Positions 16,522 through 45,131 of a DNA stretch of 64,000 bases are shown here, one piece after another (position 1 is the stretch's first letter; every line of letters starts with the position of its first letter). The stretch is from a virus, in IMG/VR virus record IMGVR_UViG_3300032214_001486, positions 40,975-104,974 of that record, one strand, 5' to 3'. The translations under genes and the position numbers were made by a program. The notes below the pieces were generated by a model. The model was not told the origin of the DNA, searched no databases, and saw only the letters and a program-made list of their open reading frames with translations.

Positions 16522-17106
16522 CTAATCGTCAACCTTTGCCTTCCTCCGCTTGCTTGTCACCGGGTAGTGCTTATTCATCCAGGCTTTCACGGCTCCGTAG
16601 CGTTCACCGTAGGGTATCTGCCCGTAGTCGTGCGCGACATACATATCCTTTAGGTATTTCGCGGCGTCCTGACTCCAGATGCGACGGGCTTCTTCCTGCT
16701 GTTCGATGGTAATGGCGCCCGTATCTGCTCGGTCTGCGAGTACCCGTTGAATGTCCGAGACAAACATTCGCTTTACGAAGATGCCCTGTAGGGCGCCGTA
16801 GAAGTCTGCCGCCAAGCTACCGGGGGAAGGGGCCGAGCCGCGCACAAGGAACCCGCCATCGCCCCTTTCAGGGTAAGAGCTTTGTGCCCACGCTGCGATG
16901 TTCTCCCGCGTCGGGGGCAGCCGTAGTCCCGGCTGGGCCTCAACCGCAGCGTAGATCAGCCGGGCGGTCTTGCTTTCGTTCTGGTCTACCCATTCGCGCA
17001 GACCAGGGCTCTCCCGCTCCCGCAGCGTGATCTCCCGGTCTACCAGCCGCCACAACGCCGCCGCTTTCAGCCGCAACGCAAATTCTGTGTCTCGGTCTGT
17101 GGTCAT
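16522..17106 (-). CDS. hypothetical protein with shared N-terminal leader
   Basis: GLREWVDQNESKTARLI; ATGA coupling. Confidence 0.7.
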   Translation of the reverse strand: MTTDRDTEFALRLKAAALWRLVDREITLRERESPGLREWVDQNESKTARLIYAAVEAQPGLRLPPTRENIAAWAQSSYPERGDGGFLVRGSAPSPGSLAADFYGALQGIFVKRMFVSDIQRVLADRADTGAITIEQQEEARRIWSQDAAKYLKDMYVAHDYGQIPYGERYGAVKAWMNKHYPVTSKRRKAKVDD

Positions 17107-19565
17107 GTCGTCCTCGGTCCTTGTAGCTGCTCGTCGGTGAAGGTGCCTTCTTCTTCGCCGTTAACGTACTCAACGTACAGGCCGGGCAAGTTTTTACTTA
17201 TGCGTGTCGATCCTACGCTGACCCGATAGAACCCCAACCCGTCGTCTGTCTTGTCACCTTCGGCCCCTCTGTTCTCGTCGGTGTTATCGTCGTCGTCAGA
17301 CCTGTACTTTTTGCGAAACCCAATATCTGTGTGCCACGTTACGGGTTGCTCTGACAAAAGCTGTGTCATTCTGTTCGCATAGCCATCGCTGCCCGGCAAG
17401 TAAGGCCAATATGCCCGCCGTAGGAAGTAGTCGCTTTGGTCCTCTACGGATTGTGTGGGGAGAACCCTTCCAAACGCCTTAGTGAAGTCCGCCGCATCAG
17501 CGACAGCCCAAGAGGGTGTGTAGCGGGTCGTGTCCCGCCGCATTGAGTCAAACCGGCGTTTAAGGTAATCTGCGATATTCTCTCCCCCCTCTTTCCGGTC
17601 ACGCGCACCCCGAGCTTTCTTATACACTTCGTCTTGGATGCCGTAATACTTATGGATAAATGTTGCGAAGGTGTAGTACATATTCACGACGAGCAGAGCC
17701 AAATACTTGGCCCATCGACTACGGACGCTTTTGACCTGTTCGACTACATCGGAAGGCAGCAGATTTTCGCACAGCAGCACATCGGGGTTGACGATCCAAC
17801 CGTCCTTAGAAACGCAGAATTTCGCAAAAACATCGGCCACGACTTGCAAATCGTTATCCAGGGCCCCAAGGCGACCCGCGGCTGTATCGACACCAGACGA
17901 AAATAAGCAAGCGTCGGCCTGTCTGTAATTCAGGGCCCCCCGGCTTTCTTTCACAAGCAGGTCAAGGCAATCATTGACCTTCCGCGCTGCGGCTTGATAC
18001 TCCGCGAGTAGCTGGGGGTTACAGAAAGAGAAGGGCTGGATATTCCCCCTAAAGTTCTTTGCGTACAGCCGAGCAAAGGGGTCGTTACGCCACGTTTGCT
18101 CGTCAAGATCGTAGGAGAATGGGCCCAGCAGCAATTCATTGAGGCGGTGGAAGGCATTGAAGAACGTGTGTGGTGTCTCCCGCAAAGGATCGCCGGGTTT
18201 GGCCTTGGAGCCTTGTAGCGGGGGGTGTACGAAGTCAATAAGCACCACAGACTTCCGCTTTTTGGCTTCCTCAGACGCCCTCTTGTAGAATTCCTCGCTC
18301 CGATAATTGTTAGGGGCGATCATAAAGGACAGGCGCAGCGAGGGTAGCCCCCGCTCCAAAGCGAGGCGATCAACGTGGTCTAAGCCCTTAGAGAATTTCT
18401 CTTTAGCGTCCTGCCGGAGCATGGGCCCAAAGTAGTAGTGAGCGGCGCCCTGCTTCCCCTTGAATTCATTTTGCCAGGAGAGCAGAGGGTTTGCACGGTA
18501 GCCGTTGGCCCGCGTTTTCGATTGCGTGTCGGGGGCGACCTTGCGGAAGCCACTATCCCCCTCATAAGGGATGAATTTCTTGTCAAAGAGGTTAGGTAGG
18601 TCCAGCCGGATACGGTAGCCCGACTTCGTGGCCTTTGTCGCTTCGATGACACCGCAAATCTGCGCTTCGGTAAATCCACCAAGTCTCTTAATGACAGCGC
18701 AGACGCGATCTCCGGCCGCTATCCCCTGACTCGACATACGCCCCGCGATCTTGTCTTTGTGTTCTTGCAGGTAAGCGTTGATCAGCAGGTCAATCTTGGT
18801 TTGGTTCTTTTCAAGGAATACCTTGTACTCAGGGCTGCTTAGGTACTGATTGCGTCCGCCATATTCCTCGTATTTCCCCTCCATGTAGGCTAAGTATTCT
18901 GTGTAGGACTGTAGGCTCGGCTGTTTTTCCGGTATGACACCGGGTACACCTGGGCGCAACCGTTCTTCTGTGAACCCAGCATTGAAGGCAGTATACTGAT
19001 CAATTGAGGTGCCGGCCGTGAATACCACGCAGGGACCGCTGGTGAGGCGGTCTATTGCGATATTCTGAGCAGGAACGTGAGACAGACCCGCCTTGCCGGA
19101 CAGGAGGCCGATTTCGCGCGCAGCCCGTTTCGTTTCATCCAGGCTGAGCTTGCCTTGGGGTGTGACCGTAGCAGCGAGGGTGTTCACCAGCATCTTTAGG
19201 TCAGCAGCTAAGCCTTTGTACTGGCCCCGAGCCGACCCCACAGACCACTCCCTGTTTCCCAGGATCAAGGTGCGGCCCGCCTTGCCATCCCGCATGACGC
19301 TGGGCGGGTTTGGGATGAATTCGTAAAGGCCGTCTGCCTGCGGGTCTGGACTTAGGTCCACACCATAGGCCAGCAGGACCGGGCGCAGCAGCAGAGGCAG
19401 GAACGGGTCAAGCCCTACAGCATCCCGCGCGTCCAAGGCGTCTGCGATTAGATCAAAGGTACGGGGTATATTTTGATCTACCCACGCTTTCAGCGCAGGT
19501 TTACCCTTGATCTTGGTCGATAACCGCCTGTAGACGCGGCCTTGTGTTTCGTTGACGGCTTTCAT
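17103..19565 (-). CDS. large multidomain hypothetical protein with shared leader and internal RANGYRANP linker
   Basis: ALKAWVDQNIPRTFDLI; 820 aa; GAGG RBS. Confidence 0.75.
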   Translation of the reverse strand: MKAVNETQGRVYRRLSTKIKGKPALKAWVDQNIPRTFDLIADALDARDAVGLDPFLPLLLRPVLLAYGVDLSPDPQADGLYEFIPNPPSVMRDGKAGRTLILGNREWSVGSARGQYKGLAADLKMLVNTLAATVTPQGKLSLDETKRAAREIGLLSGKAGLSHVPAQNIAIDRLTSGPCVVFTAGTSIDQYTAFNAGFTEERLRPGVPGVIPEKQPSLQSYTEYLAYMEGKYEEYGGRNQYLSSPEYKVFLEKNQTKIDLLINAYLQEHKDKIAGRMSSQGIAAGDRVCAVIKRLGGFTEAQICGVIEATKATKSGYRIRLDLPNLFDKKFIPYEGDSGFRKVAPDTQSKTRANGYRANPLLSWQNEFKGKQGAAHYYFGPMLRQDAKEKFSKGLDHVDRLALERGLPSLRLSFMIAPNNYRSEEFYKRASEEAKKRKSVVLIDFVHPPLQGSKAKPGDPLRETPHTFFNAFHRLNELLLGPFSYDLDEQTWRNDPFARLYAKNFRGNIQPFSFCNPQLLAEYQAAARKVNDCLDLLVKESRGALNYRQADACLFSSGVDTAAGRLGALDNDLQVVADVFAKFCVSKDGWIVNPDVLLCENLLPSDVVEQVKSVRSRWAKYLALLVVNMYYTFATFIHKYYGIQDEVYKKARGARDRKEGGENIADYLKRRFDSMRRDTTRYTPSWAVADAADFTKAFGRVLPTQSVEDQSDYFLRRAYWPYLPGSDGYANRMTQLLSEQPVTWHTDIGFRKKYRSDDDDNTDENRGAEGDKTDDGLGFYRVSVGSTRISKNLPGLYVEYVNGEEEGTFTDEQLQGPRTT

Positions 19566-19581
19566 GGTCGGTGTCCTCGAC

Positions 19582-20664: not shown

Positions 20665-21255
20665 TTAGCGGCGTTGTCCGTTTTTGCGTTCCAGCGTCGG
20701 GTAGGGGGAGCGGGGGCCGAGCCAGCGCCCCGACGTGACCTCCCCTTCGGAGCCATCCCAGGTGCCCCCAAGGATCACGGCTGTACCCCCGATCTTTGCT
20801 TTGCCTGTGATGCGGGCGCGCCCGCCGACGTGGGCCTCTCCTGACACAATCGCGTGTCCGCCGACCTGAGCGACCCCTTTAACGGTTGCCCGCCCGCCAA
20901 CGTGCGCGTTATCAGCGACGATAGCTTGCCCGCCGACGTTGGCTTGATCGGTGACCCGAGCGTTGCCGTAGATTTGGGCCCGCTCCAACGCGCGAGCGTT
21001 GCCGTCAAGGGTTGCAGCCCCGTAGATTAGGGCTTCTCCCTGCGTGGTTGCGTTGCCCTTCACGGTGCCCCGTTCCCACACATGGCGGAAGCGGGAGATC
21101 CCTAATGCCCGGCGGATCTCCCGTTGAACCCAATAAAACCTACGGTATGCGTACTGCCACAACCGGGGGCGGCCGGCTAACTTCGCCCCCAGGGCTTCCC
21201 AGGCGCGCACGTCCCGGTCATCCTCGGGGGCGAACGGGGTTTTGATCGAAGGCAT
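20665..21255 (-). CDS. left-handed beta-helix protein, paralogous C-terminus to 14277..15392
   Basis: Hexapeptide repeats; same cap GGTWDGSEGxVxxGxWxGP. Confidence 0.8.
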   Translation of the reverse strand: MPSIKTPFAPEDDRDVRAWEALGAKLAGRPRLWQYAYRRFYWVQREIRRALGISRFRHVWERGTVKGNATTQGEALIYGAATLDGNARALERAQIYGNARVTDQANVGGQAIVADNAHVGGRATVKGVAQVGGHAIVSGEAHVGGRARITGKAKIGGTAVILGGTWDGSEGEVTSGRWLGPRSPYPTLERKNGQRR

Positions 21256-29846: not shown

Positions 29847-32800
29847 CGGTGCCGCTTCGGGACTAAGGCGCTGACCCGCCGGGGGTTCTCAGTCACCTTC
29901 CGGTCAACGATCTGGCGCAGCTTAAACTGCCCCGGCTGGACCTTAAACTTGGGAATGTCAGCCAAGGTCAAGGGGGGCACTACAAAAGACCCATCGTTAT
30001 CATCCGTCCGCACCAATCCGTTGTTTTTGAGCACACGCGGGATTGTAACTACCTTAAAGTACCCCGCTTCAATTCCAGCCTTAGCTCTTTCAGCGGGTAA
30101 CCCAGCGGCCTCTAAAGCAGCGTAAGTGGCGGAACCCCCCACACTTTGCAGATACTTGTAGATTTCTCTTTGTTTGGGTCGGGACGTACCGGGATCACGG
30201 ATCGCCTGCACCCCCTTGTCCGTGAACGCATCGTCCTCGGCGGCGGCGTCCCGCACCATCTGTTCGTCAATGATGGTATCTTCTTCTGTTAGACCACTGA
30301 GCCCCTCGATATTGGCCCGCAGAGTCTCCATAAGGTCGGTAGCGTATTCCTCCTCTACTACCTTATCCCCCTTCTCCTGTAATTCTTCAAACTTATCCTC
30401 ACCTACAACGTCACCGATGATCTGCCGCTTCCGCTCGATAAGGGCGTTTAGCTGCTCGTCAATCGTATCCTTGACGACCAAGAATTCAATCGTCACGTCA
30501 CGGGTCTGCGTGTACCGATAAGTACGGTCCTCAGCCTGTTCTTCCCAGGCCGGGACATACCAACGGTCCACAAACAGGGTGTAGTTAGCGCGGGTGAGGG
30601 TGATACCCTCGCGCGCCGCCCGTGTCCCGATGAACACCTTGACCTTGGAGTTATCCCGGTCCTTCTGGAACGCTTCTACTCGACGACGGCGCTCCAAGGG
30701 GGGCACCTTCCCGTCAATATAGACATAGGGGATGCTGCGGGCGTCCAGGGCTTGCCGAATGAGTCCCATATTCTCGTCAAACTCAACAAACACCACAACG
30801 GGGTCGTTAGGGTGCTCTTTCAGCCGCGTAACGATAGTCTCGATGGCGAACGGCGTCTTGACCTTCGCTACTGCCTGCCGGGCAATCAGGTAGACGACAA
30901 AGGCGGTGCCGGCGATCTTCTTGGGGTTGTATTCAAGCTCGTTTGCCATTTCGGTCGCTTGGTAGACCGTAATTTTGCCCTTTCCATCATGGATGAATTT
31001 GAGAGCGGCGTCGATACGCTTCTCCCGAATTCGCTGGATTACTACCTCCAGCACCTTAGCCATTTCTGTGTCGTAAATCTTCCGCTGCGCCGGAGTCAGC
31101 AGGACTTCCCGGTACACACGGGTCTTTTCTCCCAGGCCCAGGGGCACTTGATTTTTCAGGCGGCGGACCATGTAGCACCGGAGCATGACGCCAAGGCGCT
31201 TCCGCAGGTTGTCCACCGTATCAAGCGTGGGGATATTGCCCTTGAAGGACGTGTTTTTCTCCGAGGGTACAAAGTTGTTCGTGTACTTGTAGTAGCCCTC
31301 CCCGTCTAAGGCTTCACCAAAGGCTACCGGGTCCACCATCGAAAGCTGGGGCCACAATTCCTCCAGCTTAGCGTTATCCAGGGCGGTGCCCGACATAACG
31401 ATTGAATACTCGGCCTGATAGGACAGCTCTCGGGCGCCAATGCTGCGAACGCTATCAAATTTCTTGCCGTAGTGAGACTCGTCTACGATCAAGGTCTTGA
31501 TACGGTCGTAGTAACGGGGGCCGTACTTGCTGGTGCTCGACCAACCCATGATGATGAAGTCAGCGTTGCGCTCAGCATCGGTTAGCTCTCCATCCCCTAA
31601 CTTACCCAAAATGGGCCCTGTACCTACGAAAACCTTAGCGCCGGGATACCAACGATCAATCTCCGCAGCCCAATTGTAGAGCACGCTGGACGGGCACACG
31701 ACTACAACGGGGAGTGTTTGCGGCGCCCTCATGCGGACAGCCGTGATCGCCTGCACGGTCTTACCTAAGCCCATCGCGTCGCCGATCAACGCCCGGCCCC
31801 CGCGCAGCCATACATACGCAGCCCCGATCTTCTGATACTCCATAAGGCCCATCATTTTAGGCCCGCCGGGGTAGTCTTTGTTAAGGTACTGCATCTTGTC
31901 CCAATCATACATATTCTCAATCTGAGCACGCTCCGGTTGAGGTATATCGGAGAATTTGGCCGCAGCGGCCACAGGGAACGCCTTGGGGCAATTGAGCATA
32001 TAGGCGGACAACAGAGCAATCCGCATCGTGTAGGACAACACGAATTCATTAGACAAGTCAAGGGCGCGGGCAAGGCGCGGCACATAGCCGGCCCGGATCT
32101 CACCCAGAACAACCGGGACCGGAAACGGCGCATACTTCAGGTTTTCTTTCAAGTCAATTCGCTTGCCCCAGCCGGGCATGAGTTCATATGTATCTTCCCC
32201 ATACCCGGTCTGAGCCAAGTTAGCCGAGTAGTAGTTGAGAATGACCTCCTTTTGGTACTGCCCTGTCTCCTTGTCTACTATCTTGTTCCCCCTAATGTCT
32301 GTCCGGTACTTGGCGTACAGGAACCAACCGCAAATTTCACTCACGTTGTCTGTGCCAATAATGACGATCTTACTCTTTGTCGCGTCTGTAGCAGCCGCCA
32401 GAGCACGCAAACCCCAGGCGTCCCCCAATTGCGGTATGAAATCGGTGCCCACCATAGAGGTAGGTACGACAAACACACCCCGACAGGCAGAGAACGAAGG
32501 TTCTGTCAATTCTTTGGCTACAGCAGCAATTGTGTCAATCGACCGACTCCAAGAAGGCAGGGGAGTTTCACCCTTAAACCCGGAGGATTGAATTTTGCTT
32601 TGGCTCTGCTCTCGCGCGTCTCCCCCTTTAATCCGTACCATTTCTGCGGCCTTGTCCTCCTTGGGCAGAAGGCGGGACCACTGGTACACAAACGAAAGAT
32701 CGCGCACAATCTGTTTGCTGTCCCCACTCACCAATTCTTCCCAGGTGTCGTGGAGCTTGGGTGTCATTGTGCTCAAATCAACAGTTTCTCCTCCACCCAA

Positions 32801-34273
32801 CGCAAGGCGCCGGGGCGCCCTGGCTGTGTATACTTCCTTCTCGATCCCCTGGGGAGTGACCATCTGCCCAGGGCTTAGCTGTACCTGGGCATCGAGCCCG
32901 GCCTTTTCCCAAGCCTCGGCAAGAGCAGGCAGGTAAGCGAAAACGGCCGGGATCTCTTTCAAGTCCCCCTCAGAGTCCGCGCCTTCTCGCCATTCTTGCA
33001 GGAATACGGCAAGCTGCGTGGGCGTTGTCGGGACAAGCACCTTATACTTGTCTACCGTCAGGCGCTTACCATATCGGTTAAAATAGCCAGAGAACGAAAA
33101 CAGCGCCGATACCGACTCACCGGGTAGACCGCCCCGCTTTTGGAACCGATCTCGGGTTGTGAGCCCGACCATAACCCCCGCGGGGGTTACCTCCCAAGAA
33201 AAGGCCGGGTGCCTTTGGTCAGGCGCGTAGTATTCGCCCTGGTGCAAGGCACCAGTAACCTTCCCCGTCGCGGGCCGGGGTAGCCGGGCAGATTGCTTAC
33301 TCCCCTTTTTGATCTGCCGGGGCGCAGGAGCCTTAGCTGCTTGCTCAGTCCACCCTTCCCAAGAAGTCTGCAAGCGATCAGCGGCGTTGGGGTATTGATC
33401 CCGCAGGTAGTCAATAAGTAGCGGTACTTCCTTGATCGAAATGTCGAGATACCAATTCTTGTATCCGCCCTTCTCCTCGGCTCGGGGCACGGCGTTGCCC
33501 CCAGCCTCGTTGATGGCGTTTTGAGCGGTAAACAGGTCTAAGGTCTTTGTAGATAGCGACAAGTACCCTGTTTTGGGGTCATAGCGCCAATTGAGGTTCC
33601 CGGTCTTGGTCAGAGGGATAGAGCCTCGGGCCAACGGTGTCCGCGAATAGATGTGGAAGTCCTGCTCGTCGGGCTTCTTGGCCCCAGGTTTCGTCAGCCG
33701 TGCGGGCTTTAAGTAATTCTCTAAGGTGCGGACAGCCCCCATCACCGCTTGGCGGGGTAGCTGAGTCTTGCTGTGTGTAATCAGCAGCCGGGCTGCGTAC
33801 AGATAATCTTGATCGTCTGCATAGCCGCCGGCCACGCGGGAGAGGAAAGCCCGCAGCGCCCCGTTTGTGGCTAAAGAGAACCCAGCGTCATCGTTATACG
33901 GCTTGGGTAGCGGGGGCGGGAGAACTGCAAGGTCAGCTACCATCCCGACAACCGCATCCTTTGCGGCTTGCACGTTAGGGTAAGTGTAGACCGCCTCGTT
34001 GGACACCTGAGCAATCGAGCCCGTAGTCTTGCGAATTACCCGCTTTTCGCGTAATTCATTCTTCTTCTCTTTCAAGGCATTAAACAGCGCCTTTTGAATT
34101 CGCTCTTGGTGTGCAAAGTAGTACGCCCTTAGTGGGCCGGTCAACCTCGACTCTAACCGCTCGATTAGATCCAGAACGGTTACAGAGAACAAGGCCGGGG
34201 GATTATGGCCCGGAATGGAGGGAACGGGGGGCTCCCCCACGGGGCTTTCCATTTCGCTGTCGTTGCGGCGCAT
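29843..34273 (-). CDS. large multidomain SNF2-family helicase with about 800-aa N-terminal extension
   Basis: LMEYQ, DAMGLGKT, DESH, MSGT, EGITL, QAEDRTYR; ATG at 34273 with GGAG RBS (MRRND...). Confidence 0.9.
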   Translation of the reverse strand: MRRNDSEMESPVGEPPVPSIPGHNPPALFSVTVLDLIERLESRLTGPLRAYYFAHQERIQKALFNALKEKKNELREKRVIRKTTGSIAQVSNEAVYTYPNVQAAKDAVVGMVADLAVLPPPLPKPYNDDAGFSLATNGALRAFLSRVAGGYADDQDYLYAARLLITHSKTQLPRQAVMGAVRTLENYLKPARLTKPGAKKPDEQDFHIYSRTPLARGSIPLTKTGNLNWRYDPKTGYLSLSTKTLDLFTAQNAINEAGGNAVPRAEEKGGYKNWYLDISIKEVPLLIDYLRDQYPNAADRLQTSWEGWTEQAAKAPAPRQIKKGSKQSARLPRPATGKVTGALHQGEYYAPDQRHPAFSWEVTPAGVMVGLTTRDRFQKRGGLPGESVSALFSFSGYFNRYGKRLTVDKYKVLVPTTPTQLAVFLQEWREGADSEGDLKEIPAVFAYLPALAEAWEKAGLDAQVQLSPGQMVTPQGIEKEVYTARAPRRLALGGGETVDLSTMTPKLHDTWEELVSGDSKQIVRDLSFVYQWSRLLPKEDKAAEMVRIKGGDAREQSQSKIQSSGFKGETPLPSWSRSIDTIAAVAKELTEPSFSACRGVFVVPTSMVGTDFIPQLGDAWGLRALAAATDATKSKIVIIGTDNVSEICGWFLYAKYRTDIRGNKIVDKETGQYQKEVILNYYSANLAQTGYGEDTYELMPGWGKRIDLKENLKYAPFPVPVVLGEIRAGYVPRLARALDLSNEFVLSYTMRIALLSAYMLNCPKAFPVAAAAKFSDIPQPERAQIENMYDWDKMQYLNKDYPGGPKMMGLMEYQKIGAAYVWLRGGRALIGDAMGLGKTVQAITAVRMRAPQTLPVVVVCPSSVLYNWAAEIDRWYPGAKVFVGTGPILGKLGDGELTDAERNADFIIMGWSSTSKYGPRYYDRIKTLIVDESHYGKKFDSVRSIGARELSYQAEYSIVMSGTALDNAKLEELWPQLSMVDPVAFGEALDGEGYYKYTNNFVPSEKNTSFKGNIPTLDTVDNLRKRLGVMLRCYMVRRLKNQVPLGLGEKTRVYREVLLTPAQRKIYDTEMAKVLEVVIQRIREKRIDAALKFIHDGKGKITVYQATEMANELEYNPKKIAGTAFVVYLIARQAVAKVKTPFAIETIVTRLKEHPNDPVVVFVEFDENMGLIRQALDARSIPYVYIDGKVPPLERRRRVEAFQKDRDNSKVKVFIGTRAAREGITLTRANYTLFVDRWYVPAWEEQAEDRTYRYTQTRDVTIEFLVVKDTIDEQLNALIERKRQIIGDVVGEDKFEELQEKGDKVVEEEYATDLMETLRANIEGLSGLTEEDTIIDEQMVRDAAAEDDAFTDKGVQAIRDPGTSRPKQREIYKYLQSVGGSATYAALEAAGLPAERAKAGIEAGYFKVVTIPRVLKNNGLVRTDDNDGSFVVPPLTLADIPKFKVQPGQFKLRQIVDRKVTENPRRVSALVPKRHR

Positions 34274-34394: not shown

Positions 34395-37064
34395 TTAGGC
34401 CCTTTTCAGCCATTCGATTGTGTCAAGGCGGCCGTCCTGCTCCAGCGTTTCGATCAATTGCTGGTAGCACTTGGGGCACGACTGCGCGACCTTTAGCTCT
34501 TGGCGTAGCTTCTGCTCTGCGGTCTGGATCGACTGACGCTCGGGGTCAGGTATATCCAAAACCACAGACAACAGGCGGCTGAACGCCGGGATCAAGGGGT
34601 AGGTGCGGAAAGCTATATCCTCTCGGATAATCGAAAATCCCTCGTCGTGACCCTCCCCGTGACTAACTCCGTAGACGTAGTGGGCTAACTCGTGGCAGAT
34701 CAGGCCGTGCAGGTACGCTGCTAAGTCCCGAGAGTTGTTATACCCTTTTTTCGCCTCCTTGAAGAAGAAGGGGTTTACTCCAATTGTGCTGATCTTGGAG
34801 ATGTAGATAGCAATAACATCGTCGTTAAGGACGAAGCCGGGGTATACCCGTCCCGTCACCTGCCCATAAGTGTCGATCACCATGCGAAGAAGTTGATCCC
34901 ATAGAACAAGCACAGGAAGATACTTAGCGTACTCTTTCTTGAATTTCCGGGCGCCCTCCGAATTATACTTGCCGTCTTTGTTGAGAAATTGCTTTCGACT
35001 AATCAGTAAGCCCGCGAAAGCCCCAAAGGGGTTGCCAAAGAGGCGCTGACGTTTCGCGTCGTCAATATCGTATTGATCTACCAGACCAAAGCGCAGCAGG
35101 TCGTTTAGAACGTCTGTCAAGGCGGACTCAACGCTGAGGGCGAAGCTGATACCGCCTACTTCCGGCCGCGCTGCGTTGTCCTGTACGGTATCCAATGCCT
35201 GATACAGCAGATTTAGATCAGCCAGATATAGGTGGTATGGGTGTCTTAGTTGCTCGGCCAAGATAGAGAATACATCGCGGTGTATCTCGCTATACCGTTT
35301 TTTGCCTGCAATTTCATTGTACGCTTTGAGGTAGTCCGTCAGAACAGTGACGCTGATCCGGTAAATTTCTATGGGGTCCACTCTCCGCTGCTCTGCTTCC
35401 CTGATTTCGTCCTCTTGGTCTAAGGCTTTATCCATCGCCTTTTCAGTCGGCGTGGCTACCCGTTGTGGGCTTTGGGGTGTCTCTGGCACATGATCCGACG
35501 CTACATCACCGGCTTTTTCTTCGCGTACTTGTGCTTTGAGCTTAGCCCCCAGCTTTCGCTCCCCCCCTGCGGCTTGTTCTTTGCGGAAATCGCGGGCAAC
35601 CTTAGCTCCCGCCTGAACAATGCTAAGTAAGTCAGCGTCGCCCAAAGCCTCAGCGACTTTTTTCTGAATTTCCTCTTGTTCCGGCGGCATAGTCGAAGAT
35701 GCGCGCGGGTCGTACATTTCGTCCTCTTTGTCCTCTTTGACCGTTACTTTCTTCTCACAGAAGTCACGGAAAGAGTTAAAGGCGCTATGCTCGGCGCGTG
35801 TGTTGAATTTGTCCCGCCCGGTGTTAAAGGGGTATCCCTCGGTCCCCGGCACACCCGACCTTCCTTGCAGCGCGGACAGCCCCGGAGAGTCTAAATCTAC
35901 TGTCATCCCTCGACGCCCATCAAAGTAAGGGGTGACAACCTCACCATTAAGGGTTAAGGTAATGTCCGGCAGATTATTGAGGGCCAGCAGTCTGCGAATT
36001 CGGACTTCAATGGGGTCATAATCCTCAACGACGGTGTAACCGTCTTTATTTAGGTAACTCACTCGGTCAAAGTGAGGCACCTTAAAGACAGTTAGCTCTA
36101 CGCCGGCAACGTAGGGCATACCCGTTTCAATGGGTTCCTGCTTGTTTAACTGCTCAGAAGTAACGAACAAGTCTTGGGTCCGAATTTCCCACGACCTGTC
36201 CGCAGAGCAGCCAAGGATAACAGCCTTGGCTACACCAAAACCTCCCGTTGTGCCCGAAGTCGCATAGTCCAGCGTATAGTCATAATCTAAGGTCTTGTCA
36301 TAAGACTTTTTTGGCTGCTGGAATTGAAGCAAGCCATTGAGCCTAATGTAGTAAGCGCCGTCATTTGCGTTGAGCCCCCGCTTGTATCTCCGCACAGCTA
36401 AACTAATGGAGGCATCAAAGTCCCCGCGGGCCAAGGCTTCGTTGTACTTATCGCTTTCCCCGATGCTAAGGAAAGATTGGATAATCTTTGCGTCCATGCC
36501 CGTGCCGTTGTCTCGAAAGATCAACGCGTTTTGGGTACGGTCTACCACCACATCAAAACGGCCCTCTCCCTTCTTGATTTTGCGCTGCTCGACCGCTTTG
36601 CGTATCGCATCCACAGAATTTTGTAGGGCCTCGCGCACCGCGAGTAGAGGTAGGTCTTTGCTTTCGTAGGTATTTTTAGTAAGTAGCTCCCACATGCGCG
36701 GTATGTTCGCCCCGTAAGCCAAAACCGGGCCCTTACCGTTGCGGCGCAGGCGGCGCAGGTGGCGCAGGACGGCGACCGGGTTGGTGCGGGCGTCTACCGC
36801 TGCGGCTGCTTGCTTGGGCGTGCGGCGTACACCCGCCTTCACCACCTCGATATGCTGCTGGCGAGTCAACGCAGGGGCCATGCCCCGCAGACGAGCACGA
36901 GCCCGGACGCGAACCGGGTCCATCTGATCCAACATCGCTTGCAGCAGCCCCAGGTAGGGCTTTAACTCAGGATTGGTCGAGATACCGGGGATCTCCCGCT
37001 CGGCGTACTGCAAAAACTCTTGCGTCGTCATCGCACGGGTGTCTTGTGCTGGTGTCCAAGCCAT
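34395..37064 (-). CDS. GHKL (HSP90/MORC-like) ATPase fused to a C-terminal HExxH metallopeptidase-like domain
   Basis: REALQNSVDA, DNGTGM, SIGESDK, GGFGVAK; C-terminal ICHELAH...HDEGF. Confidence 0.88.
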   Translation of the reverse strand: MAWTPAQDTRAMTTQEFLQYAEREIPGISTNPELKPYLGLLQAMLDQMDPVRVRARARLRGMAPALTRQQHIEVVKAGVRRTPKQAAAAVDARTNPVAVLRHLRRLRRNGKGPVLAYGANIPRMWELLTKNTYESKDLPLLAVREALQNSVDAIRKAVEQRKIKKGEGRFDVVVDRTQNALIFRDNGTGMDAKIIQSFLSIGESDKYNEALARGDFDASISLAVRRYKRGLNANDGAYYIRLNGLLQFQQPKKSYDKTLDYDYTLDYATSGTTGGFGVAKAVILGCSADRSWEIRTQDLFVTSEQLNKQEPIETGMPYVAGVELTVFKVPHFDRVSYLNKDGYTVVEDYDPIEVRIRRLLALNNLPDITLTLNGEVVTPYFDGRRGMTVDLDSPGLSALQGRSGVPGTEGYPFNTGRDKFNTRAEHSAFNSFRDFCEKKVTVKEDKEDEMYDPRASSTMPPEQEEIQKKVAEALGDADLLSIVQAGAKVARDFRKEQAAGGERKLGAKLKAQVREEKAGDVASDHVPETPQSPQRVATPTEKAMDKALDQEDEIREAEQRRVDPIEIYRISVTVLTDYLKAYNEIAGKKRYSEIHRDVFSILAEQLRHPYHLYLADLNLLYQALDTVQDNAARPEVGGISFALSVESALTDVLNDLLRFGLVDQYDIDDAKRQRLFGNPFGAFAGLLISRKQFLNKDGKYNSEGARKFKKEYAKYLPVLVLWDQLLRMVIDTYGQVTGRVYPGFVLNDDVIAIYISKISTIGVNPFFFKEAKKGYNNSRDLAAYLHGLICHELAHYVYGVSHGEGHDEGFSIIREDIAFRTYPLIPAFSRLLSVVLDIPDPERQSIQTAEQKLRQELKVAQSCPKCYQQLIETLEQDGRLDTIEWLKRA

Positions 37065-37676: not shown

Positions 37677-39146
37677 TCAGCGACGACGGCGGGGGTTCGA
37701 CTTGACGTTCTCGCCCAGCATTTCGTCAATGACTTCGTTGATCAGCTTCTTGATCTCCGCTTCCAATTGAGCGTCGCTCATGCCCTCGCCCGACACAGCC
37801 GGGCCGCGGGAAACCGGCGCGACGACCGGAGCGGAGACAACGGGCGACGGCGCAGGCGCGGGAGCCTCGGGGATAACCGGGGCCGGCGGCGTTGTCTCGA
37901 TGATCGCCTTGGCGACTTCGGGCGAACCCGCAGCAGCAGGACGAATGGCGGCCAGCAGAAGTACAATGTTCTTTTTGATGTTTTCGATAAACTCTTTTTG
38001 GAATTCCGCTTTGGTCTGGTTTTCTTTGGGCGCAGCCTTGGCCGCGTAACGGGCAAGACCAGCATAAACCTTATCTACCTCAGAAGGTGTACCCCCCTTC
38101 CGTTTGATCATTTCGCGTAGGGCGGCCTCGATTGCGGGTGTAATATCCACAGGATTACGCCGGGCACCGTTAGAACGTGTCAGACGGTTACGGGGGTTCC
38201 CCAGGATCTTAGCAAAGGCCGCGTCAATCTCAGCCTGTTCGCGCTCGGCCTCTGTCATTTCCGGCGCAGCCGCAGGGGCAGGTACAGCAGACGACTCATT
38301 CATAGCAGCCAAAAGGAGATCAGACCCGTCATCTTCCTCGACGGCTTCGGCCTCGGGGGGCAGCGGCGAAGGCTGGGAGTCTACAATGTCCACGTCTACG
38401 CCGGCCTTATTGGCGATCTGCTCCACCGTATCGGCCACGTTCTCGGAAATGGCCTGGGCCTGCTCGGCGGCGGCCGTCGCATCCTGGGCCGCAGCTACGG
38501 TCACCGGGACCGCATCGGCGGGCTTTTGCTTGCGGGTCCGGGTGACCTTTTCCGCACCCTCCACGACAGCGGCGGCGTTGTTCGTCACGCCCTGTAGACG
38601 CTTGGCCGCCTCTAACTGCGTTTTAAGATCCTCCAACGCCTGCGAGTACGCCACGGGAGGGCGGCCAACACGGGCAGGGAGGGCAGTCCAATCCTTGCCT
38701 GCGCTCGTCTTAAAGACCTTTTTTTGCAGCTCAGCGATGTTCCGCTCGATAGCCGCTACCGAGTCGGTCGTGTCCTGCTGCTTTGTCTCAACGACCGCCG
38801 CGGCGGCCTTTGTAATCTTGGCCGCAGCCTTTTGACCCTGGGCCTCGGTCAGATTGACGGTCGGAGTCGGCGGAGGGGAAACAGCCTCCTGCACCGCGGG
38901 GCTTTGCATACCCCCAGCCATAAAGTCCCTGTGGTATTCGCCGCCGGGAAGGAAGGCATTTTCGTCCAGGTTATTGTACGCGGCCAGCCACTTTAGGTAG
39001 GTCGCAACCGCACCAGGGGCCGGGTTGCGGCGGCTCTTTGGGTTGGCGCGGGGTATCCAAGAGGGCGGCGGCTGGGCCGTCCAGGCCGAGCTAACCGACA
39101 CCCACCGCTCTCCACGCTGTTCGTGACTGCTGTTCCGACGAGCCAT
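37677..39146 (-). CDS. putative virion core protein with multiple RxN(P) motifs
   Basis: RRNS, RANP, RRNP, RSNG, RRNP, KSNPRRRR; AT-hook-like VGRPP; GGAGGT RBS. Confidence 0.65.
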   Translation of the reverse strand: MARRNSSHEQRGERWVSVSSAWTAQPPPSWIPRANPKSRRNPAPGAVATYLKWLAAYNNLDENAFLPGGEYHRDFMAGGMQSPAVQEAVSPPPTPTVNLTEAQGQKAAAKITKAAAAVVETKQQDTTDSVAAIERNIAELQKKVFKTSAGKDWTALPARVGRPPVAYSQALEDLKTQLEAAKRLQGVTNNAAAVVEGAEKVTRTRKQKPADAVPVTVAAAQDATAAAEQAQAISENVADTVEQIANKAGVDVDIVDSQPSPLPPEAEAVEEDDGSDLLLAAMNESSAVPAPAAAPEMTEAEREQAEIDAAFAKILGNPRNRLTRSNGARRNPVDITPAIEAALREMIKRKGGTPSEVDKVYAGLARYAAKAAPKENQTKAEFQKEFIENIKKNIVLLLAAIRPAAAGSPEVAKAIIETTPPAPVIPEAPAPAPSPVVSAPVVAPVSRGPAVSGEGMSDAQLEAEIKKLINEVIDEMLGENVKSNPRRRR

Positions 39147-39205: not shown

Positions 39206-39715
39206 TCATCGCACCCGCGAGGCCCGGCGTCTATACCCTTTGCGGGCCTTGTTTGCCTTGACGGTCGCAGTTTTAGGGCCCCCGGCCTTCGCTTGCACCG
39301 CTAATGCCGCCGCTTGGATTATTTCGTCCCCGTGCTCTTTTAACTGCTCGGCGACTAAGGAAGCAAGGGCCTTGGCCCGGTCGTCGTCAGACAGAAACAG
39401 CCGCGCAGCCGGGTTGAGGGTCGAGAGCTTGCGTAAAATCTCAATCTGCCTTTCCGGGGTCGCTGCTACGAATTCATCCACATGCCCCTGTACTTTCTTG
39501 ATTACTGTGGGCAGAACAAGGGGGAGAATTGCACGCGCCGCTGCGACTAAGGCAGGATGGTTGGCACGAACCGGGGGAAGGGGGGAGCCCACCACGATCA
39601 CATCAAGACCAGGGCGTTTAAGGGCGGCGGCGTCTAACAAGGCATCGGCCTTGTTTTTGTACGGGCCGACGTTCCCGTAAGCGTTCCCATTTTTTCTGAT
39701 CTCGATGCGATACAT
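39206..39715 (-). CDS. putative basic core protein
   Basis: RKNG, RANH, KANK motifs; basic tail. Confidence 0.6.
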   Translation of the reverse strand: MYRIEIRKNGNAYGNVGPYKNKADALLDAAALKRPGLDVIVVGSPLPPVRANHPALVAAARAILPLVLPTVIKKVQGHVDEFVAATPERQIEILRKLSTLNPAARLFLSDDDRAKALASLVAEQLKEHGDEIIQAAALAVQAKAGGPKTATVKANKARKGYRRRASRVR

Positions 39716-39744: not shown

Positions 39745-40917
39745 TTACTTCCGGGCGCGGAAGCTGATTTTGCGACCATCGCGGGTACGGAAGCTCACGT
39801 TGCTGTTGCGACGGCTGTTCGCACGGAGCGCCATCGACTGCACGCGCTCACCCGCCGGCAGGACGTTATCGAGCAGGGCCCGGCTGGTGGCCGGCTTGCG
39901 GCTGCTGACGCGGTAGACCCACGCTTCCCAATTGCGACCGTTGACCGCCCCATCCACAATGAAGCCGTCCACGACTTCACCCAGACCGGCGTTCTTGAAT
40001 TCGGCAAGGCTTTCATCACCATCGTCGATCATGTCCAACGCCATTTTCTGACTAATCCGGTGATCCGCGACCTTCGCCGCAGTACGGAGCAGAGTCTTGG
40101 CGTCAATGGCCGCCGCGCGAGCGGTCGCGTAAGGCCCGAGATCGGCCCCGCGGTTGAGGTCGAATTCACCGTTTACCAGCACGGCGACGCGGTAGATACC
40201 CACGCCGGCCCGCCGACCGCCCTTCGCCTTGTGCTTCTCGCTGATTTTCACCCGAGTAGCAGTAGAGGGCACAATCCCCTTGCGCGAAGCACGGCCCTTG
40301 GGGGCCTTGCGCTCCGCAGGAAATGCCTCTTTCATTCCCGCGCGCACAATAGCCAGCCGTAGCTCCTCGGCCGTCAATTGCGAGTAGCTCGGGATCTTCA
40401 GACTCTTAGCCTCCTTCAGCAGACCTTTACGGTCCAGCCCGCTGATCTCCTCTTGAATTTCTTGGCGCGTTTGAGCCCGCTCACTCTTGGGGGCTTTGTC
40501 CGGCAGCGGGTAGGAAACATCCACCTCAGCCTTGACAACGGCCGCCAGCAGATCCTTCGCGCCCATCTTCGATAGGCCGGTCAGGCCCAGATCTTTTGCA
40601 TCTGTGCGAAGGATATTTAGCTTTTCTTCCCCCTTGTACTTAGCGTAAGCAGCACGGACTTCCGCCCGATACTGCTTGCGCTGCTCCTTGATTTCACTCA
40701 AAGTAAAACCGCCGGAGACAGCCTGAGCGGCGGGCTTCGAGGCGGCAGGCTTCGGAGCCGGGGCGGGGGCGGGGGCGGGCGCCGCGACCGGGGCCTTGGG
40801 GGCCTTGGGGGCAGCGGAGGCGGCAGCGGCTTGAGCCTTTGAGGGGCGGTCGCGCTTCTTTTTTTCGCCGGCCTTAGCCTCGGTTTTGGTGTCGGTGCTG
40901 TTTCGGAAAACCAACAT
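39745..40917 (-). CDS. basic nucleic-acid-binding core protein with two Rho-N/HEH-like motifs
   Basis: AKDLGLTGLSKMGAKDL and AKSLKIPSYSQLTAEEL; FRNS, RANSRRNS. Confidence 0.65.
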   Translation of the reverse strand: MLVFRNSTDTKTEAKAGEKKKRDRPSKAQAAAASAAPKAPKAPVAAPAPAPAPAPKPAASKPAAQAVSGGFTLSEIKEQRKQYRAEVRAAYAKYKGEEKLNILRTDAKDLGLTGLSKMGAKDLLAAVVKAEVDVSYPLPDKAPKSERAQTRQEIQEEISGLDRKGLLKEAKSLKIPSYSQLTAEELRLAIVRAGMKEAFPAERKAPKGRASRKGIVPSTATRVKISEKHKAKGGRRAGVGIYRVAVLVNGEFDLNRGADLGPYATARAAAIDAKTLLRTAAKVADHRISQKMALDMIDDGDESLAEFKNAGLGEVVDGFIVDGAVNGRNWEAWVYRVSSRKPATSRALLDNVLPAGERVQSMALRANSRRNSNVSFRTRDGRKISFRARK

Positions 40918-42029: not shown

Positions 42030-42031
42030 GC

Positions 42032-42727: not shown

Positions 42728-42864
42728 GATTTACCCCTTTGTGGGAGTACGGAGAGGGAGACAGGGGGGAGTATACCCCAAGGGGGGCCCCGAGGGGAAT
42801 AGGCAAACCGGGGCGGGCCTGGGGGCCTGGAGGCTTGGGGCCTGGGGGCCTGGGGTGTAAATGC

Positions 42865-42906
42865 ACAAAAGTAAGACGGCCCGCCCGCGGAGTCCGGGGC
42901 GGGCCG
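42865..42906 (-). terminator. rho-independent terminator after the major capsid candidate
   Basis: CGGCCCGCCC/GGGCGGGCCG stem plus TCTTACTTTT on the minus strand. Confidence 0.7.
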
Positions 42907-42954
42907 AATGGGGAGTATCGGAAGGGGAAACCGACCCTCCACCGGGGGTACAGA

Positions 42955-43647: not shown

Positions 43648-43718
43648 GGGAAATCTCCAAGGGGGGAAGGAGCGAGGGGGAGGGGTTGCACCGAGTACCA
43701 ATTACCCGGCGCAGAGGG

Positions 43719-45131
43719 TCAGAACGCCGAGCCCGCAAAGAGGGTAGCACCAAGCTCCCCGCTGCTGAGGGCCAAGCCGTTCATATCGAGCGCCAAACCG
43801 GCGGTTTCACCCGCGGTCGCGGCAGAGGGGGTAACAACGGAGGCCGGTACAGTGGTCTGCGCGCCGGGGTTGGTCCCCGCCGAAGCAGCCGCCGCGGCGG
43901 TCTGCTGCTCAACCGTGGCGATAGCCTGGGCCTTGATTTGCTCCAAGAGAGCGACGCGCTTCTCGGGGGAGAGCGCCGCGATCTTCGCAAACCGTTCCCA
44001 GCCGACCAGACAGATCAACCAACCGAAACGGTGACCGGGGCGGCCCGCGAGCGAGCTAATACCCTGACCGTTATAGTTGATCGCCTGCGTCGGAGCGTCC
44101 CCGAAGGTGCGGTGCCAAGCGTGCTGACCCGAAAGGGCAGCTTGGCCCTCCTGTACGGAGAGATCGGCGGGGGCGTAGTAGGCATCGGCAAGGCTGGCTC
44201 CGCTGTAATCTACAGCGGAGCCCTTACCGAAAGGGACGACATCATAGGCCATCCCGTCGCCAAAGCCGGCAGTATCGGTGAGGGCAAGGCCCGACATATC
44301 GGTGAGAGCGAGGCCCGACATATCAGTGAGGGCGAGGCCATCAAGGTCGTCGTCGTCACCCGACAGATCATCGTCGTCGTCACCGTCAAGGTCGAGATCG
44401 CCAAGATCGCCGGCCTTGTCGGACAGGAAGCGGTAAATGTCGAGCGCGCCGCCTACAAGCAGAGCGCCGACCGCAACCTGATTACGAAGCTCTTTGGAGC
44501 CGACCGGGACAAAATTCAGGACAGTGGCGACAGCGGCGCCCTGTACGGTGAACTTGACCGGCGAAATGGCGCGGAGGGCCGACTTAACAGCCGGGACCGC
44601 GCTCAGACCGCGCATCAGGCCGTAGTGGACAGCGCCCACCGCGACACCGACGAGGATCGGAGAAATGTACCCCGCGACAGTGTTACCGACGACCGGGATC
44701 TTGCGGGCCAAGCCCTCGACCGGAGCGGTAAACTGGTTGCTGAACGCGCCAAAAGCGTTCCGGCGTACAACCTTCTTACCCCGGCGGCGGTTGCCGTGGA
44801 GGTTCATCAGAAGGGTGTTCCGGCGCATACGGCGCATACCGTTCCGGTGCATACCGCGCAGCCCATTCCGGCGGCCGTTGCCGTGAAGGTTCATCAGCAG
44901 GGTGTTCCGGCGCACACCGCGGCGGGCGTTGCGGCGACCGTTGCCGTGAAGGTTCATCAGCAGCGTGTTCCGGCGGTGGGAAGTGTTCCGCCGACGAGCA
45001 GCCCCCTTCCGCTTGCGGTTGGTACGCAGCTTTAACCCAGCGAGAGCGCGAGCAGCGCCCCGCTTCGGGTTAGACTTGGATACGAACAACGCGCCGCTGA
45101 GCGGTGCGCCGTTACGGAACATGAGGGGCAT
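43719..45131 (-). CDS. putative major core/membrane protein: Arg-rich RRN-repeat N-terminus, hydrophobic middle, acidic C-terminal region
   Basis: RRNTLLMNLHGN x3; TM-like segments; GLALTD x3; AAGGAG RBS; immediately upstream of the capsid candidate. Confidence 0.7.
   Translation of the reverse strand: MPLMFRNGAPLSGALFVSKSNPKRGAARALAGLKLRTNRKRKGAARRRNTSHRRNTLLMNLHGNGRRNARRGVRRNTLLMNLHGNGRRNGLRGMHRNGMRRMRRNTLLMNLHGNRRRGKKVVRRNAFGAFSNQFTAPVEGLARKIPVVGNTVAGYISPILVGVAVGAVHYGLMRGLSAVPAVKSALRAISPVKFTVQGAAVATVLNFVPVGSKELRNQVAVGALLVGGALDIYRFLSDKAGDLGDLDLDGDDDDDLSGDDDDLDGLALTDMSGLALTDMSGLALTDTAGFGDGMAYDVVPFGKGSAVDYSGASLADAYYAPADLSVQEGQAALSGQHAWHRTFGDAPTQAINYNGQGISSLAGRPGHRFGWLICLVGWERFAKIAALSPEKRVALLEQIKAQAIATVEQQTAAAAASAGTNPGAQTTVPASVVTPSAATAGETAGLALDMNGLALSSGELGATLFAGSAF
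44790..44975. repeat. three copies of a 36-bp coding repeat (RRNTLLMNLHGN)
   Basis: 44790-44825, 44877-44912, 44940-44975. Confidence 0.9.

What the first reader, a model, noticed from the sequence alone, without database searches (positions are those of the whole stretch)
17103..45131. Second motif, R/K-x-N(P/G), marks core proteins and domain borders of large enzymes
Seen: about ten copies in the N-terminus of 43719..45131; six in 37677..39146; several each in 39206..39715 and 39745..40917; RTNP...RRNG just before the GHKL domain; MRRND at the start and KNNG...TENP at the end of the large SNF2; RANGYRANP splitting the 820-aa protein; TRNG...WNP between the two modules of 60001..60690; RKNG at the end of 20665..21255. 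It is largely absent from the Gly-motif membrane proteins. Inference: a second sorting or cleavage signal for proteins in the DNA-containing lumen, implying that the SNF2 and GHKL enzymes are packaged.
Basis: partly seen in the sequence, partly recalled or inferred. Interest (0 to 1): 0.8.

Follow-up and report, generated by a model that had tools for sequence, protein, structure and literature searches.

The report
Basic Asn-Pro motif in phage proteins
A short basic peptide centred on one asparagine (Arg/Lys-Arg/Lys-Asn-Pro) recurs at the ends and joints of DNA-associated late proteins in a large group of uncultured phages; it is real and under selection, but nobody knows yet whether it is cut, bound or a DNA hook.

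Summary
The motif is real, but it is narrower than described and weak in this window. Here, strict [RK]-x-N-[PG] exceeds shuffles only in four basic core-like proteins (8 vs 1.3). Several of the roughly ten copies in 43719-45131 come from a DNA tandem repeat. The large-enzyme block is not enriched (8 vs 4.4).

Relatives settle the question. In 80 related metagenome loci, [RK]-x-N-P occurs 265 times against 40.8 expected, at GC from 32 to 72%. The central residue is Asn, not Ser, Thr or Asp. Six unrelated viral loci show no excess.

The enzyme copies are conserved:
- The Asn before the GHKL domain is invariant in 15 viral-type homologues. All 15 carry the motif there; 0 of 89 remoter homologues do.
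- MRRND and ENPRR are kept in 5 of 5 copies of the large SNF2.

Some listed copies are different things: a beta-turn in a small domain, the GHKL catalytic DNG, and a chance MRFNP.

Function is untested. My odds are: cleavage site 0.35, DNA hook 0.3, docking tag 0.15. The scan has noted this motif before in at least eight other genomes.

The parts
43719..45131 (-). Membrane-anchored protamine-like protein encoded just upstream of the capsid-like genes. Its N-terminal basic region holds ten R-N-x copies between 44754 and 45116: FRNG, KSNP, RRNT x4, RRNA x2, RRNG, HRNG.
   Evidence: Tandem DNA repeats at 44817-44975. 55 homologues found in 80 loci; 30 of the 49 that are at least 250 aa long carry an N-terminal hydrophobic-x-NP-basic element, and the median is 6 loose copies.
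37677..39146 (-). Core-like basic protein with six copies: RRNS 39129-39140, RANP 39039-39050, RRNP 39021-39032, RSNG 38166-38177, RRNP 38151-38162, KSNP 37692-37703 (followed by RRRR and the stop codon).
   Evidence: Strict count 5 vs 0.38 in 2000 shuffles. No homologue was found in the fetched loci, so conservation is untested.
39745..40917 (-). Basic protein with Rho_N/SAP-like helices. Copies: FRNS at the N-terminus (40897-40905), RANS 39814-39825, and RRNS 39802-39813 just before a C-terminal VSF..G..SF tail.
   Evidence: Pfam Rho_N, weak. In all 9 homologues printed, an [RK]-x-N stands at the start of the C-terminal tail, followed by S, P or K.
39206..39715 (-). Small basic protein. RKNG at 39686-39697 is a turn inside a conserved small N-terminal domain, not a linker copy.
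   Evidence: The same ..[RK]-[RK]-N-G..G.LGPY.. domain occurs in 5 of 5 homologues, and in L005 13841 and L009 12330.
36735..36788 (-). RTNP (36777-36788) and RRNG (36735-36746), bracketing a basic linker just N-terminal of the GHKL ATPase domain of 34395-37064.
   Evidence: N120 is invariant and R119 is at least 90% conserved in 15 viral-type homologues of 30-95% identity. The motif lies upstream of the ATPase in 15 of the 15 closest homologues and in 0 of 89 others.
29843..34273 (-). Large SNF2 protein. Copies: MRRND at the N-terminus (34259-34270), KNNG (30017-30028), and ENPR plus a basic tail (29879-29893).
   Evidence: MRRND is kept in 5 of 5 copies and ENPRRV in 5 of 5 (49-100% identity); RVLKN is kept in 5 of 5. 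Pfam SNF2-rel_dom and Helicase_C.
18486..18512 (-). RANG-Y-RANP in the middle of the 820-aa protein 17103-19565.
   Evidence: R, N, R, N and P are kept while four neighbouring residues vary, in 4 of 4 homologues. Three are 82-86% identical and the fourth is an identical fragment.
60412..60435 (+). RNG..WNP between the two modules of 60001-60690.
   Evidence: The N-module is a separate gene in L010 and L004. In L004 323-1489 the C-module is preceded by RKNP and followed by RRNP. In L007 it has no clear motif.
20677..20688 (-). RKNG near the C-terminus of the beta-solenoid protein 20665-21255.
   Evidence: Present. As a single copy it is within chance (1 vs 0.18; 17% of 2000 shuffles reached this count). 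No homologues were examined.
52887..53996 (-). Membrane-anchored transglutaminase-like (papain-fold) enzyme: the only conserved protease-type candidate of the late module.
   Evidence: Pfam Transglut_core 3.5e-10. Homologues occur in 7 of 9 related contigs; the other two are fragments. It carries no motif copy itself.

Best explanation
Shown: [RK]-[RK]-N-P, with small residues tolerated after the Asn, is a selected, Asn-centred short linear motif. It sits in basic linkers, after short leaders, just after membrane helices, and at the extreme ends of late, mostly DNA-associated proteins. It is found across a large, undescribed lineage of uncultured phages to which this 105-kb genome belongs. Inferred: a trans-acting factor reads it, most likely a maturation protease that cuts after the Asn (P3-P2-P1 = basic-basic-Asn, small or Pro at P1'). 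That cutting would chop bead-on-a-string core proteins into modules and basic peptides, and trim the viral-type N-terminal extensions of the GHKL and SNF2 enzymes. This would resemble the way T4 gp21 or adenain process core and internal proteins (recalled). Whether the enzymes are packaged is a further inference.
For: - Enrichment: 265 vs 40.8 (sd 6.2) in 80 related loci, at low, middle and high GC. It is 2-8 fold in each of 9 IMG/VR loci and 14 vs 3.4 in L020.
- Tight coupling: P follows [RK][RKH]N in 43 of 98 cases, and N fills [RK][RKH]xP in 43 of 93. In six unrelated viral loci the figures are 0 of 10 and 0 of 27.
- Asn is not interchangeable: 65 copies against 9 for Ser, 9 for Asp, 10 for Thr and 6 for Gln at the same position. 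This fits P1 specificity.
- The basic residues lie mainly upstream: 44% against 31% downstream.
- The Asn is invariant while the next residue varies among G, S, N, A and P in 15 GHKL homologues. The motif and the extension are absent from 89 remoter homologues.
- Gene ends and starts fall at the motif. L010 13224 ends where L009 12330 continues with RRNP, and stand-alone genes start M-x-RRNP.
- Modules of 20-150 aa lie between copies.
- A papain-fold enzyme is conserved in the late module.
Against: - No cleavage product has been seen.
- No protease with known Asn specificity was found.
- From own knowledge, Pro at P1' is disliked by most proteases.
- Copies at residues 2-6 (MRRND, MMRRNP) or 5 residues from the stop codon (NPRRRR) would release only tiny peptides.
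- There is an NP-then-basic form, with 14 cases that have no basic residue before the Asn.
- Copies stand 6-7 residues apart in protamine-like arrays.
- The other N-terminal leader, shared by 16522, 17103 and 28326, is not followed by the motif.
- By my reading of the sequence, the transglutaminase-like enzyme's catalytic domain lies on the opposite membrane face from the basic tails that carry KKNP.
Confidence: 0.35

Rival explanations
1. An uncut DNA (or acidic-lipid) hook. An Asn-Pro turn flanked by Arg/Lys acts like the SPKK/SPRR or AT-hook motifs. It punctuates protamine-like segments and tethers DNA enzymes and membrane-protein tails to the packaged genome.
For: - The flanks are basic (18-24% against 12%) and poor in acidic residues (3.6-5.9% against 9.6%).
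- The richest carriers are protamine-like. The family upstream of the capsid gene has up to 74 R+K in its first 150 residues.
- Basic residues occur on both sides of NP.
- The carriers are DNA proteins: SNF2, GHKL, a Rho_N/SAP-like protein, and by eye a Dps-like protein starting MMRRNP in L004.
- Terminal copies make sense as arms.
- SPK(K/R) arrays in sperm histones compact DNA (PMC9903204; abstract start seen).
Against: - A turn cap should accept Ser, Thr or Asp, but these are 6-7 times rarer than Asn at this position although they are commoner residues.
- MRRND in the SNF2 is followed by an acidic stretch.
- The Asn is more conserved than the arginines in the GHKL alignment.
Confidence: 0.3
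2. A docking tag. The motif binds a pocket of a hub protein, such as the capsid-like protein or another conserved late protein. The multi-copy membrane protein would then tether capsomers, and tagged modules and enzymes would be recruited into the particle.
For: - It shows Asn specificity and sits in accessible termini and linkers.
- The multi-copy carrier is always encoded next to the capsid-like genes and is co-conserved with them.
- Each stand-alone module keeps its own N-terminal copy.
Against: - No partner has been identified.
- In the window's closer relatives the multi-copy protein has lost Pro after the Asn (1 of 97) while other proteins keep it (26 of 95). This argues against one strict shared pocket.
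Confidence: 0.15
3. A passive seam. The motif is a favoured linker, and perhaps a microhomology at which modules recombine, and nothing reads it.
For: Modules are shuffled at the motif among relatives.
Against: - Copies at extreme N- and C-termini link nothing.
- Codons at the copies vary, so there is little DNA microhomology.
- The Asn is invariant at 30% protein identity.
Confidence: 0.1
4. A protease-free separation during translation, like the 2A peptides of picornaviruses.
For: Asn-Pro, with Pro as a poor acceptor, lies at module joints.
Against: - NPGP occurs in only 2 of 245 NP dipeptides.
- Many copies have G, S, T or A after the Asn.
- Copies at residue 3-6 could not act through the exit tunnel (own reasoning).
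Confidence: 0.03
5. Chance or Arg-rich composition.
For: Within the window, single copies in the enzyme block, the membrane proteins and the left arm are at chance level. In MRFNP of 48792-49175 the Asn is not kept in L005 and L006 homologues (by eye).
Against: Shuffles that keep each protein's composition never reach the observed counts in the core proteins or in relatives. Unrelated high-GC viral loci show no excess.
Confidence: 0.02

Closest known systems
Consensus cleavage codes of virion maturation proteases: T4 gp21 (L/I-x-E), phiKZ gp175 (S/A/G-x-E), adenovirus adenain ((M/I/L)XGG-X). All recalled; the adenain consensus is also quoted in scan note e1-5347757.
   Same: A 3-4 residue code with one invariant residue recurs in many late proteins. 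There are several copies in core proteins and single copies after short leaders of internal enzymes.
   Different: Here the invariant residue is Asn, with basic residues before it and usually Pro after it. No cognate protease has been identified and no cut has been observed. Copies also sit at the very ends of proteins.
SPKK / SPRR-type basic turn motifs of sperm histones and protamine-like proteins (PMC9903204, abstract start seen; the mechanism is recalled).
   Same: A turn-forming residue plus Pro next to Arg/Lys, repeated in very basic DNA-compacting tails.
   Different: The residue is Asn, not Ser or Thr, with almost no interchange. The basic residues are mostly upstream. The motif also occurs singly on enzymes and after membrane helices.
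Polyvalent proteins and packaged anti-restriction proteins of phages, such as P1 DarB and DdrB (Iyer et al. 2017, PMC5512222; passages read).
   Same: Large late-encoded proteins with SWI2/SNF2 ATPase, Rho-N and zincin-like HExxH domains are thought to be packaged and delivered with the DNA. DdrB is processed before packaging.
   Different: In the passages I read, that paper describes no Asn-Pro joint motif (the term 'linker' has 0 occurrences). Here the modules are mostly small basic domains, and the enzymes are separate genes.
Asparagine peptide lyases: self-cleavage at Asn, for example N-PTH in FlhB/YscU and Asn42-Pro43 in reovirus mu1 (recalled).
   Same: Asn before the scissile bond, often followed by Pro; used in virus maturation.
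   Different: Those need one folded catalytic site per protein. Here there are many copies in basic, probably disordered stretches, and NPTH occurs 0 times.

Membership tests
Maturation-protease cleavage code (T4 gp21 / adenain type) | A short consensus with one invariant residue, recurring in many virion or late proteins beyond chance | tested here: met
Maturation-protease cleavage code (T4 gp21 / adenain type) | Sites at leader or propeptide borders, and several sites in core proteins | tested here: inconclusive
   Met for the GHKL protein, the SNF2 ends and the core proteins. Not met for the leader shared by 16522, 17103 and 28326. Many copies sit at the extreme termini.
Maturation-protease cleavage code (T4 gp21 / adenain type) | A cognate protease encoded with the morphogenesis genes | tested here: inconclusive
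   Transglut_core is conserved in 7 of 9 related contigs, but its specificity is unknown. No other protease family was found in 100 ORFs.
Maturation-protease cleavage code (T4 gp21 / adenain type) | Cleaved products in particles | not testable with these tools
   The virus is uncultured and no proteome tool is available.
SPKK / AT-hook type DNA-binding turn motifs | An S/T-P-[KR]-[KR] or R-G-R-P core | tested here: not met
   The core is [RK][RK]NP. Ser and Thr at the Asn position are 9 and 10 against 65.
SPKK / AT-hook type DNA-binding turn motifs | Repeats in very basic tails of DNA-compacting proteins | tested here: met
SPKK / AT-hook type DNA-binding turn motifs | Binding to DNA | not testable with these tools
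   Needs a bench assay.
Asparagine peptide lyases | A single self-cleaving Asn in a folded catalytic context (for example NPTH) | tested here: not met
   NPTH occurs 0 times. There are up to 13 copies per protein in repeat arrays.
2A-type ribosome skipping | An N-P-G-P core | tested here: not met
   2 of 245 NP dipeptides.
Polyvalent / packaged effector proteins | Several effector domains in one late-encoded polypeptide, often with SNF2 and a zincin-like peptidase | tested here: inconclusive
   The SNF2 and the GHKL+HExxH proteins are late-strand genes, and multi-module basic proteins occur in relatives. Packaging is untested.

The most novel reading that the evidence does not exclude
R-R-N|P is the cut-site code of an undescribed, Asn-specific maturation system in a widespread lineage of large uncultured phages that lack any recognisable terminase, portal or known capsid family. 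The system would convert bead-on-a-string precursors into protamine-like peptides and small DNA-binding modules. It would also release SNF2 and GHKL enzymes from their viral leaders inside the particle.
Probability: 0.3. Interest if true: 0.8.

Novelty: new variant of a known kind. Interest (0 to 1): 0.6.

Why it matters
If the motif is read by a protease or a docking partner, it gives a sequence rule for listing the internal and delivered proteins of a whole uncultured phage lineage directly from metagenomes. That lineage has 183 relatives in one scan, from fresh and sea water, at GC 32-72%. The rule could also point to a new Asn-directed enzyme. If the motif is a DNA hook, it would be a prokaryotic-virus counterpart of the SPKK-type motifs. 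Either way it separates viral-type from cellular-type versions of the same enzyme (GHKL: 15 of 15 against 0 of 89).

Tried and rejected
- A DNA-level motif is rejected: Arg, Asn and Pro codons differ among the copies, and six-frame counts were uninformative.
- Composition is rejected by within-protein shuffles.
- A twin-arginine export signal is rejected by eye: the N-terminal copies printed are not followed by a hydrophobic stretch.
- A genome-wide shift of the residue after the Asn, which would have pointed to a co-evolving reader, is rejected. The loss of Pro is confined to the multi-copy family in the window's closer relatives (1 of 97 against 26 of 95 in other proteins).
- The conserved 45621-46256 family is not supported as a hidden protease. 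It has no invariant Cys or Ser in 8 sequences, and the atlas model is poor.
- The GHKL protein is absent from five related contigs, so its HExxH domain cannot be a lineage-wide protease.
- PHROGs gave nothing for 20 proteins apart from one weak hit.
- PDB sequence profiles gave nothing.
- GenBank phages hold no relative of the capsid-like protein.
- The atlas gave only weak leads to PM2 P2 and PRD1 P3 (0.75-0.77).
- TerL_ATPase and FtsK family searches were empty in the four viral records searched, including the window's genome and one complete relative.
- Literature searches found no description of the motif or of this lineage: 'RRNP' + 'motif', 'Asn-Pro' + bacteriophage + cleavage + virion, and jelly-roll/internal membrane/uncultivated. 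Only listings and abstract starts were seen. Supplementary files were not opened.
- In one search I trimmed several ORF starts to likely start sites. Two of them (22234-23961 and 24439-26352) are in-frame guesses.
Full report
**Context.** The window is the right 64 kb of a single 104,974-bp viral contig.
- Pfam finds a tyrosine recombinase, three SNF2 helicases, a weak GHKL ATPase, a family A DNA polymerase, methylases, an M15 peptidase and a membrane-anchored transglutaminase-like enzyme.
- It finds no terminase, portal or known capsid family. In all, 100 ORFs were scanned.
- PHROGs gives nothing for 20 late proteins apart from one weak hit.
- The capsid-like protein 42955-43701 has 187 representative relatives and none in GenBank phages.
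- The protein atlas offers only weak leads to PM2 P2 and PRD1 P3.
- TerL_ATPase and FtsK family searches are empty in the four viral records searched, which include the window's genome and one complete relative.
- The virion type therefore stays open.

**Observation in the window.** The pattern was applied loosely, however. Of the ten copies in 43719-45131, two fit [RK]-x-N-[PG] and the rest are RRNT, RRNA, HRNG or FRNG. Several lie in 63-bp and 24-bp tandem DNA repeats.

Within-protein shuffles give these counts:

| Class | Observed | Expected | Shuffles reaching observed |
|---|---|---|---|
| Four core-like basic proteins | 8 | 1.3 | 0 of 1000 |
| 16 large proteins of 12529-37566 | 8 | 4.4 | 76 of 1000 |
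| Capsid-like proteins | 0 | 0.4 | n/a |
| Membrane-anchored proteins | 1 | 1.3 | n/a |
| Left arm of the genome | 7 | 5.8 | n/a |

Two of the eight enzyme-block hits are the catalytic DNG and LNG of the GHKL fold, which are invariant in all homologues. So counts support the claim only for the core-like proteins, and the absence from membrane proteins is what chance predicts. Codons at the copies vary, so the signal is at the protein level.

**Relatives.**
- Nine IMG/VR loci that share the capsid-like gene all show an excess of [RKH]-x-N-[PG]. The observed/expected counts are 33/4.1, 13/3.2, 7/2.8, 11/3.8, 10/2.7, 11/3.2, 8/3.1, 11/2.7 and 6/3.1. A tenth locus from a metagenome-assembled genome (MAG) gives 14/3.4.
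- In 80 metagenome loci (the best 80 of 183 relatives; GC 32-72%; 693 called proteins), [RK]-x-N-P occurs 265 times against 40.8 expected (sd 6.2; maximum 57 in 100 shuffles).
- The excess holds in low-, middle- and high-GC loci: 100/11.2, 19/3.5 and 146/26.1.
- The four residues are tightly coupled. P follows [RK][RKH]N in 43 of 98 cases, and N fills [RK][RKH]xP in 43 of 93. In six unrelated viral loci of similar GC the figures are 0 of 10 and 0 of 27, and those loci show no enrichment.
- The central residue is specifically Asn: 65 copies against 9 Ser, 9 Asp, 10 Thr and 6 Gln.
- Basic residues stand within two positions upstream of 44% of all NP pairs, against 12-18% for other x-Pro pairs. 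They stand downstream of 31%.
- N-G pairs show no such link overall.
- The real motif is therefore [RK]-[RK]-N-P, with a weaker NP-then-basic form (14 cases).

**Conservation of the enzyme copies.**
- *GHKL.* Among 114 homologues, the 15 closest (29-95% identity) all carry one or two copies in the 90 residues before the ATPase domain. None of the other 89 that have the ATPase anchor do. In the alignment of the window's protein with 14 of these homologues, the Asn of RRNG is one of only three invariant columns of the N-terminal extension. The next residue varies among G, S, N, A and P. Cellular-type homologues, such as one named for Nannocystis pusilla, lack the extension.
- *Large SNF2.* MRRND, RVLKN and ENPRRV are each kept in 5 of 5 sequences down to 49% identity.
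- *820-aa protein.* R-x-N-[GS]-x-R-x-N-P keeps R, N, R, N and P in 4 of 4 homologues (three close, one an identical fragment) while four neighbouring residues change.
- *39745-40917.* All 9 homologues printed have an [RK]-x-N at the start of the C-terminal tail, followed by S, P or K.

**Copies that are something else.**
- RKNG of 39206-39715 lies in a conserved small domain (..[RK][RK]NG...G.LGPY..) shared by 5 of 5 homologues. It is probably a hairpin turn.
- MRFNP of 48792-49175 reads MRFQP and MRFVP in relatives (by eye).
- RKNG of 20665-21255 could not be tested.
- The junction of 60001-60690 has partial support. In L004 the same C-module is flanked by RKNP and RRNP, but in L007 it has no clear motif.

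**Anatomy of the motif across the lineage.**
- It precedes modules. In multi-module basic proteins, domains of 20-150 aa are separated by RRNP-type copies.
- A gene in L010 ends exactly where its L009 homologue continues with RRNP, and stand-alone genes begin M-x-RRNP.
- In relatives it follows the membrane helix of eight membrane proteins, at the head of a basic tail.
- The gene upstream of the capsid-like gene encodes a membrane protein with a protamine-like N-terminus. It has up to 74 R+K in 150 residues and a median of 6 loose copies. An N-terminal LFV-x-NP-[RK][RK] element is present in 30 of 49 homologues.
- In the window's closer relatives this family has almost lost Pro after the Asn (1 of 97), while other proteins keep it (26 of 95). 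So the window shows the motif in a degenerate form, and there is no genome-wide change of rule.

**Mechanism.** The data show selection on a specific Asn in accessible basic segments. They do not show what reads it.
- *Cutting after Asn (0.35).* It best explains the Asn specificity, the directionality, the tolerance for small residues after the Asn, the seams and the viral-type leaders. It has precedents in T4, phiKZ and adenovirus (recalled). A papain-fold enzyme is conserved in the late module. Against it stand Pro after the cut, the copies at the extreme termini, and the lack of any known Asn protease.
- *An uncut DNA hook of the SPKK kind (0.3).* It explains the basic context, the protamine-like carriers, the DNA-related carriers and the terminal copies. 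It does not explain why Ser or Thr never replace Asn.
- *A docking tag (0.15), a passive seam (0.1), 2A-like skipping (0.03) and chance (0.02).* These rank lower.
- *Packaging of the enzymes.* That the SNF2 and GHKL enzymes are packaged is plausible by analogy with the P1 Dar proteins and polyvalent proteins (PMC5512222; passages read), but it is untested.

**Prior notes and novelty.**
- The scan's earlier notes list the same kind of Asn-Pro motif in at least eight other genomes. These are unchecked AI notes.
- My tests agree that the motif is real and that cutting is unproven.
- My tests add the GHKL split (15 of 15 against 0 of 89), the independence from GC, and the family-restricted loss of Pro.
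- Three literature searches found no description of the motif or of this lineage.

Noticed in passing
window 34395-37064 (C-terminal part, about residues 790-830 of the 900-aa ORF): The GHKL protein ends in an HExxH...H...RE motif that is invariant in 19 aligned homologues, including cellular-type ones. This looks like a zincin-type peptidase domain fused to the ATPase.
   Followed up: partly
window 2058-2492 (+): A small 144-aa protein with an HExxH motif. One member of the 50-protein batch gave a weak Pfam eCIS_core hit (5.8e-4). I only infer from the motif that it is this protein.
   Followed up: partly
window 44273-44339 and homologues (L005 8537, L007 3454, L008 2700): A second repeat, G-hydrophobic-A-hydrophobic-[TD]-[DNS]-x-G (GLALTDMS here, a 24-bp unit x2.8), recurs in the acidic C-terminal half of the family upstream of the capsid gene. 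In L008 it merges with the Asn-Pro motif (GLALTNP).
   Followed up: partly
window 39802-39745 and L027, L033, L036, L042, L043, L048: A roughly 20-residue basic mini-module, VSF-x-T-x-x-G-x-x-VSF, closes 39745-40917. In relatives it stands between two motif copies inside longer proteins.
   Followed up: partly
window 16522-17106, 17103-19565, 28326-29243: The N-termini share a short helical stretch (L..W[VI][DE].N....[LI]I). BLAST E is 4e-5 between the first two and 0.013 between the second and third. It is not followed by the Asn motif.
   Followed up: partly
window 60436-60690; L004 323-1489; L007 13789-15429: A roughly 80-residue module (..LLFD...W...A..WL..HG....VD......FRQ..P..F....FRTI) moves between a two-module protein, a multi-module basic protein and the C-terminus of an SNF2 helicase.
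   Followed up: partly
L004 1486-1848: A small protein starting MMRRNP looks by eye like a Dps/ferritin-type DNA-binding protein. No family search was run.
   Followed up: no
whole genome G000 and relative G005 (92.7 kb, terminal repeats, rated complete): No TerL_ATPase or FtsK-type packaging ATPase by family search, and no portal or capsid family by Pfam. The capsid-like family is widespread: 183 metagenome relatives, fresh and sea water, GC 32-72%.
   Followed up: partly
L019-L022: Relatives of the capsid-like gene sit in metagenome-assembled genomes (MAGs) labelled Gemmatimonadota, proteobacterium, Solibacteraceae and Planctomycetota. These are probably binning of viral contigs, so the host remains unknown.
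   Followed up: no
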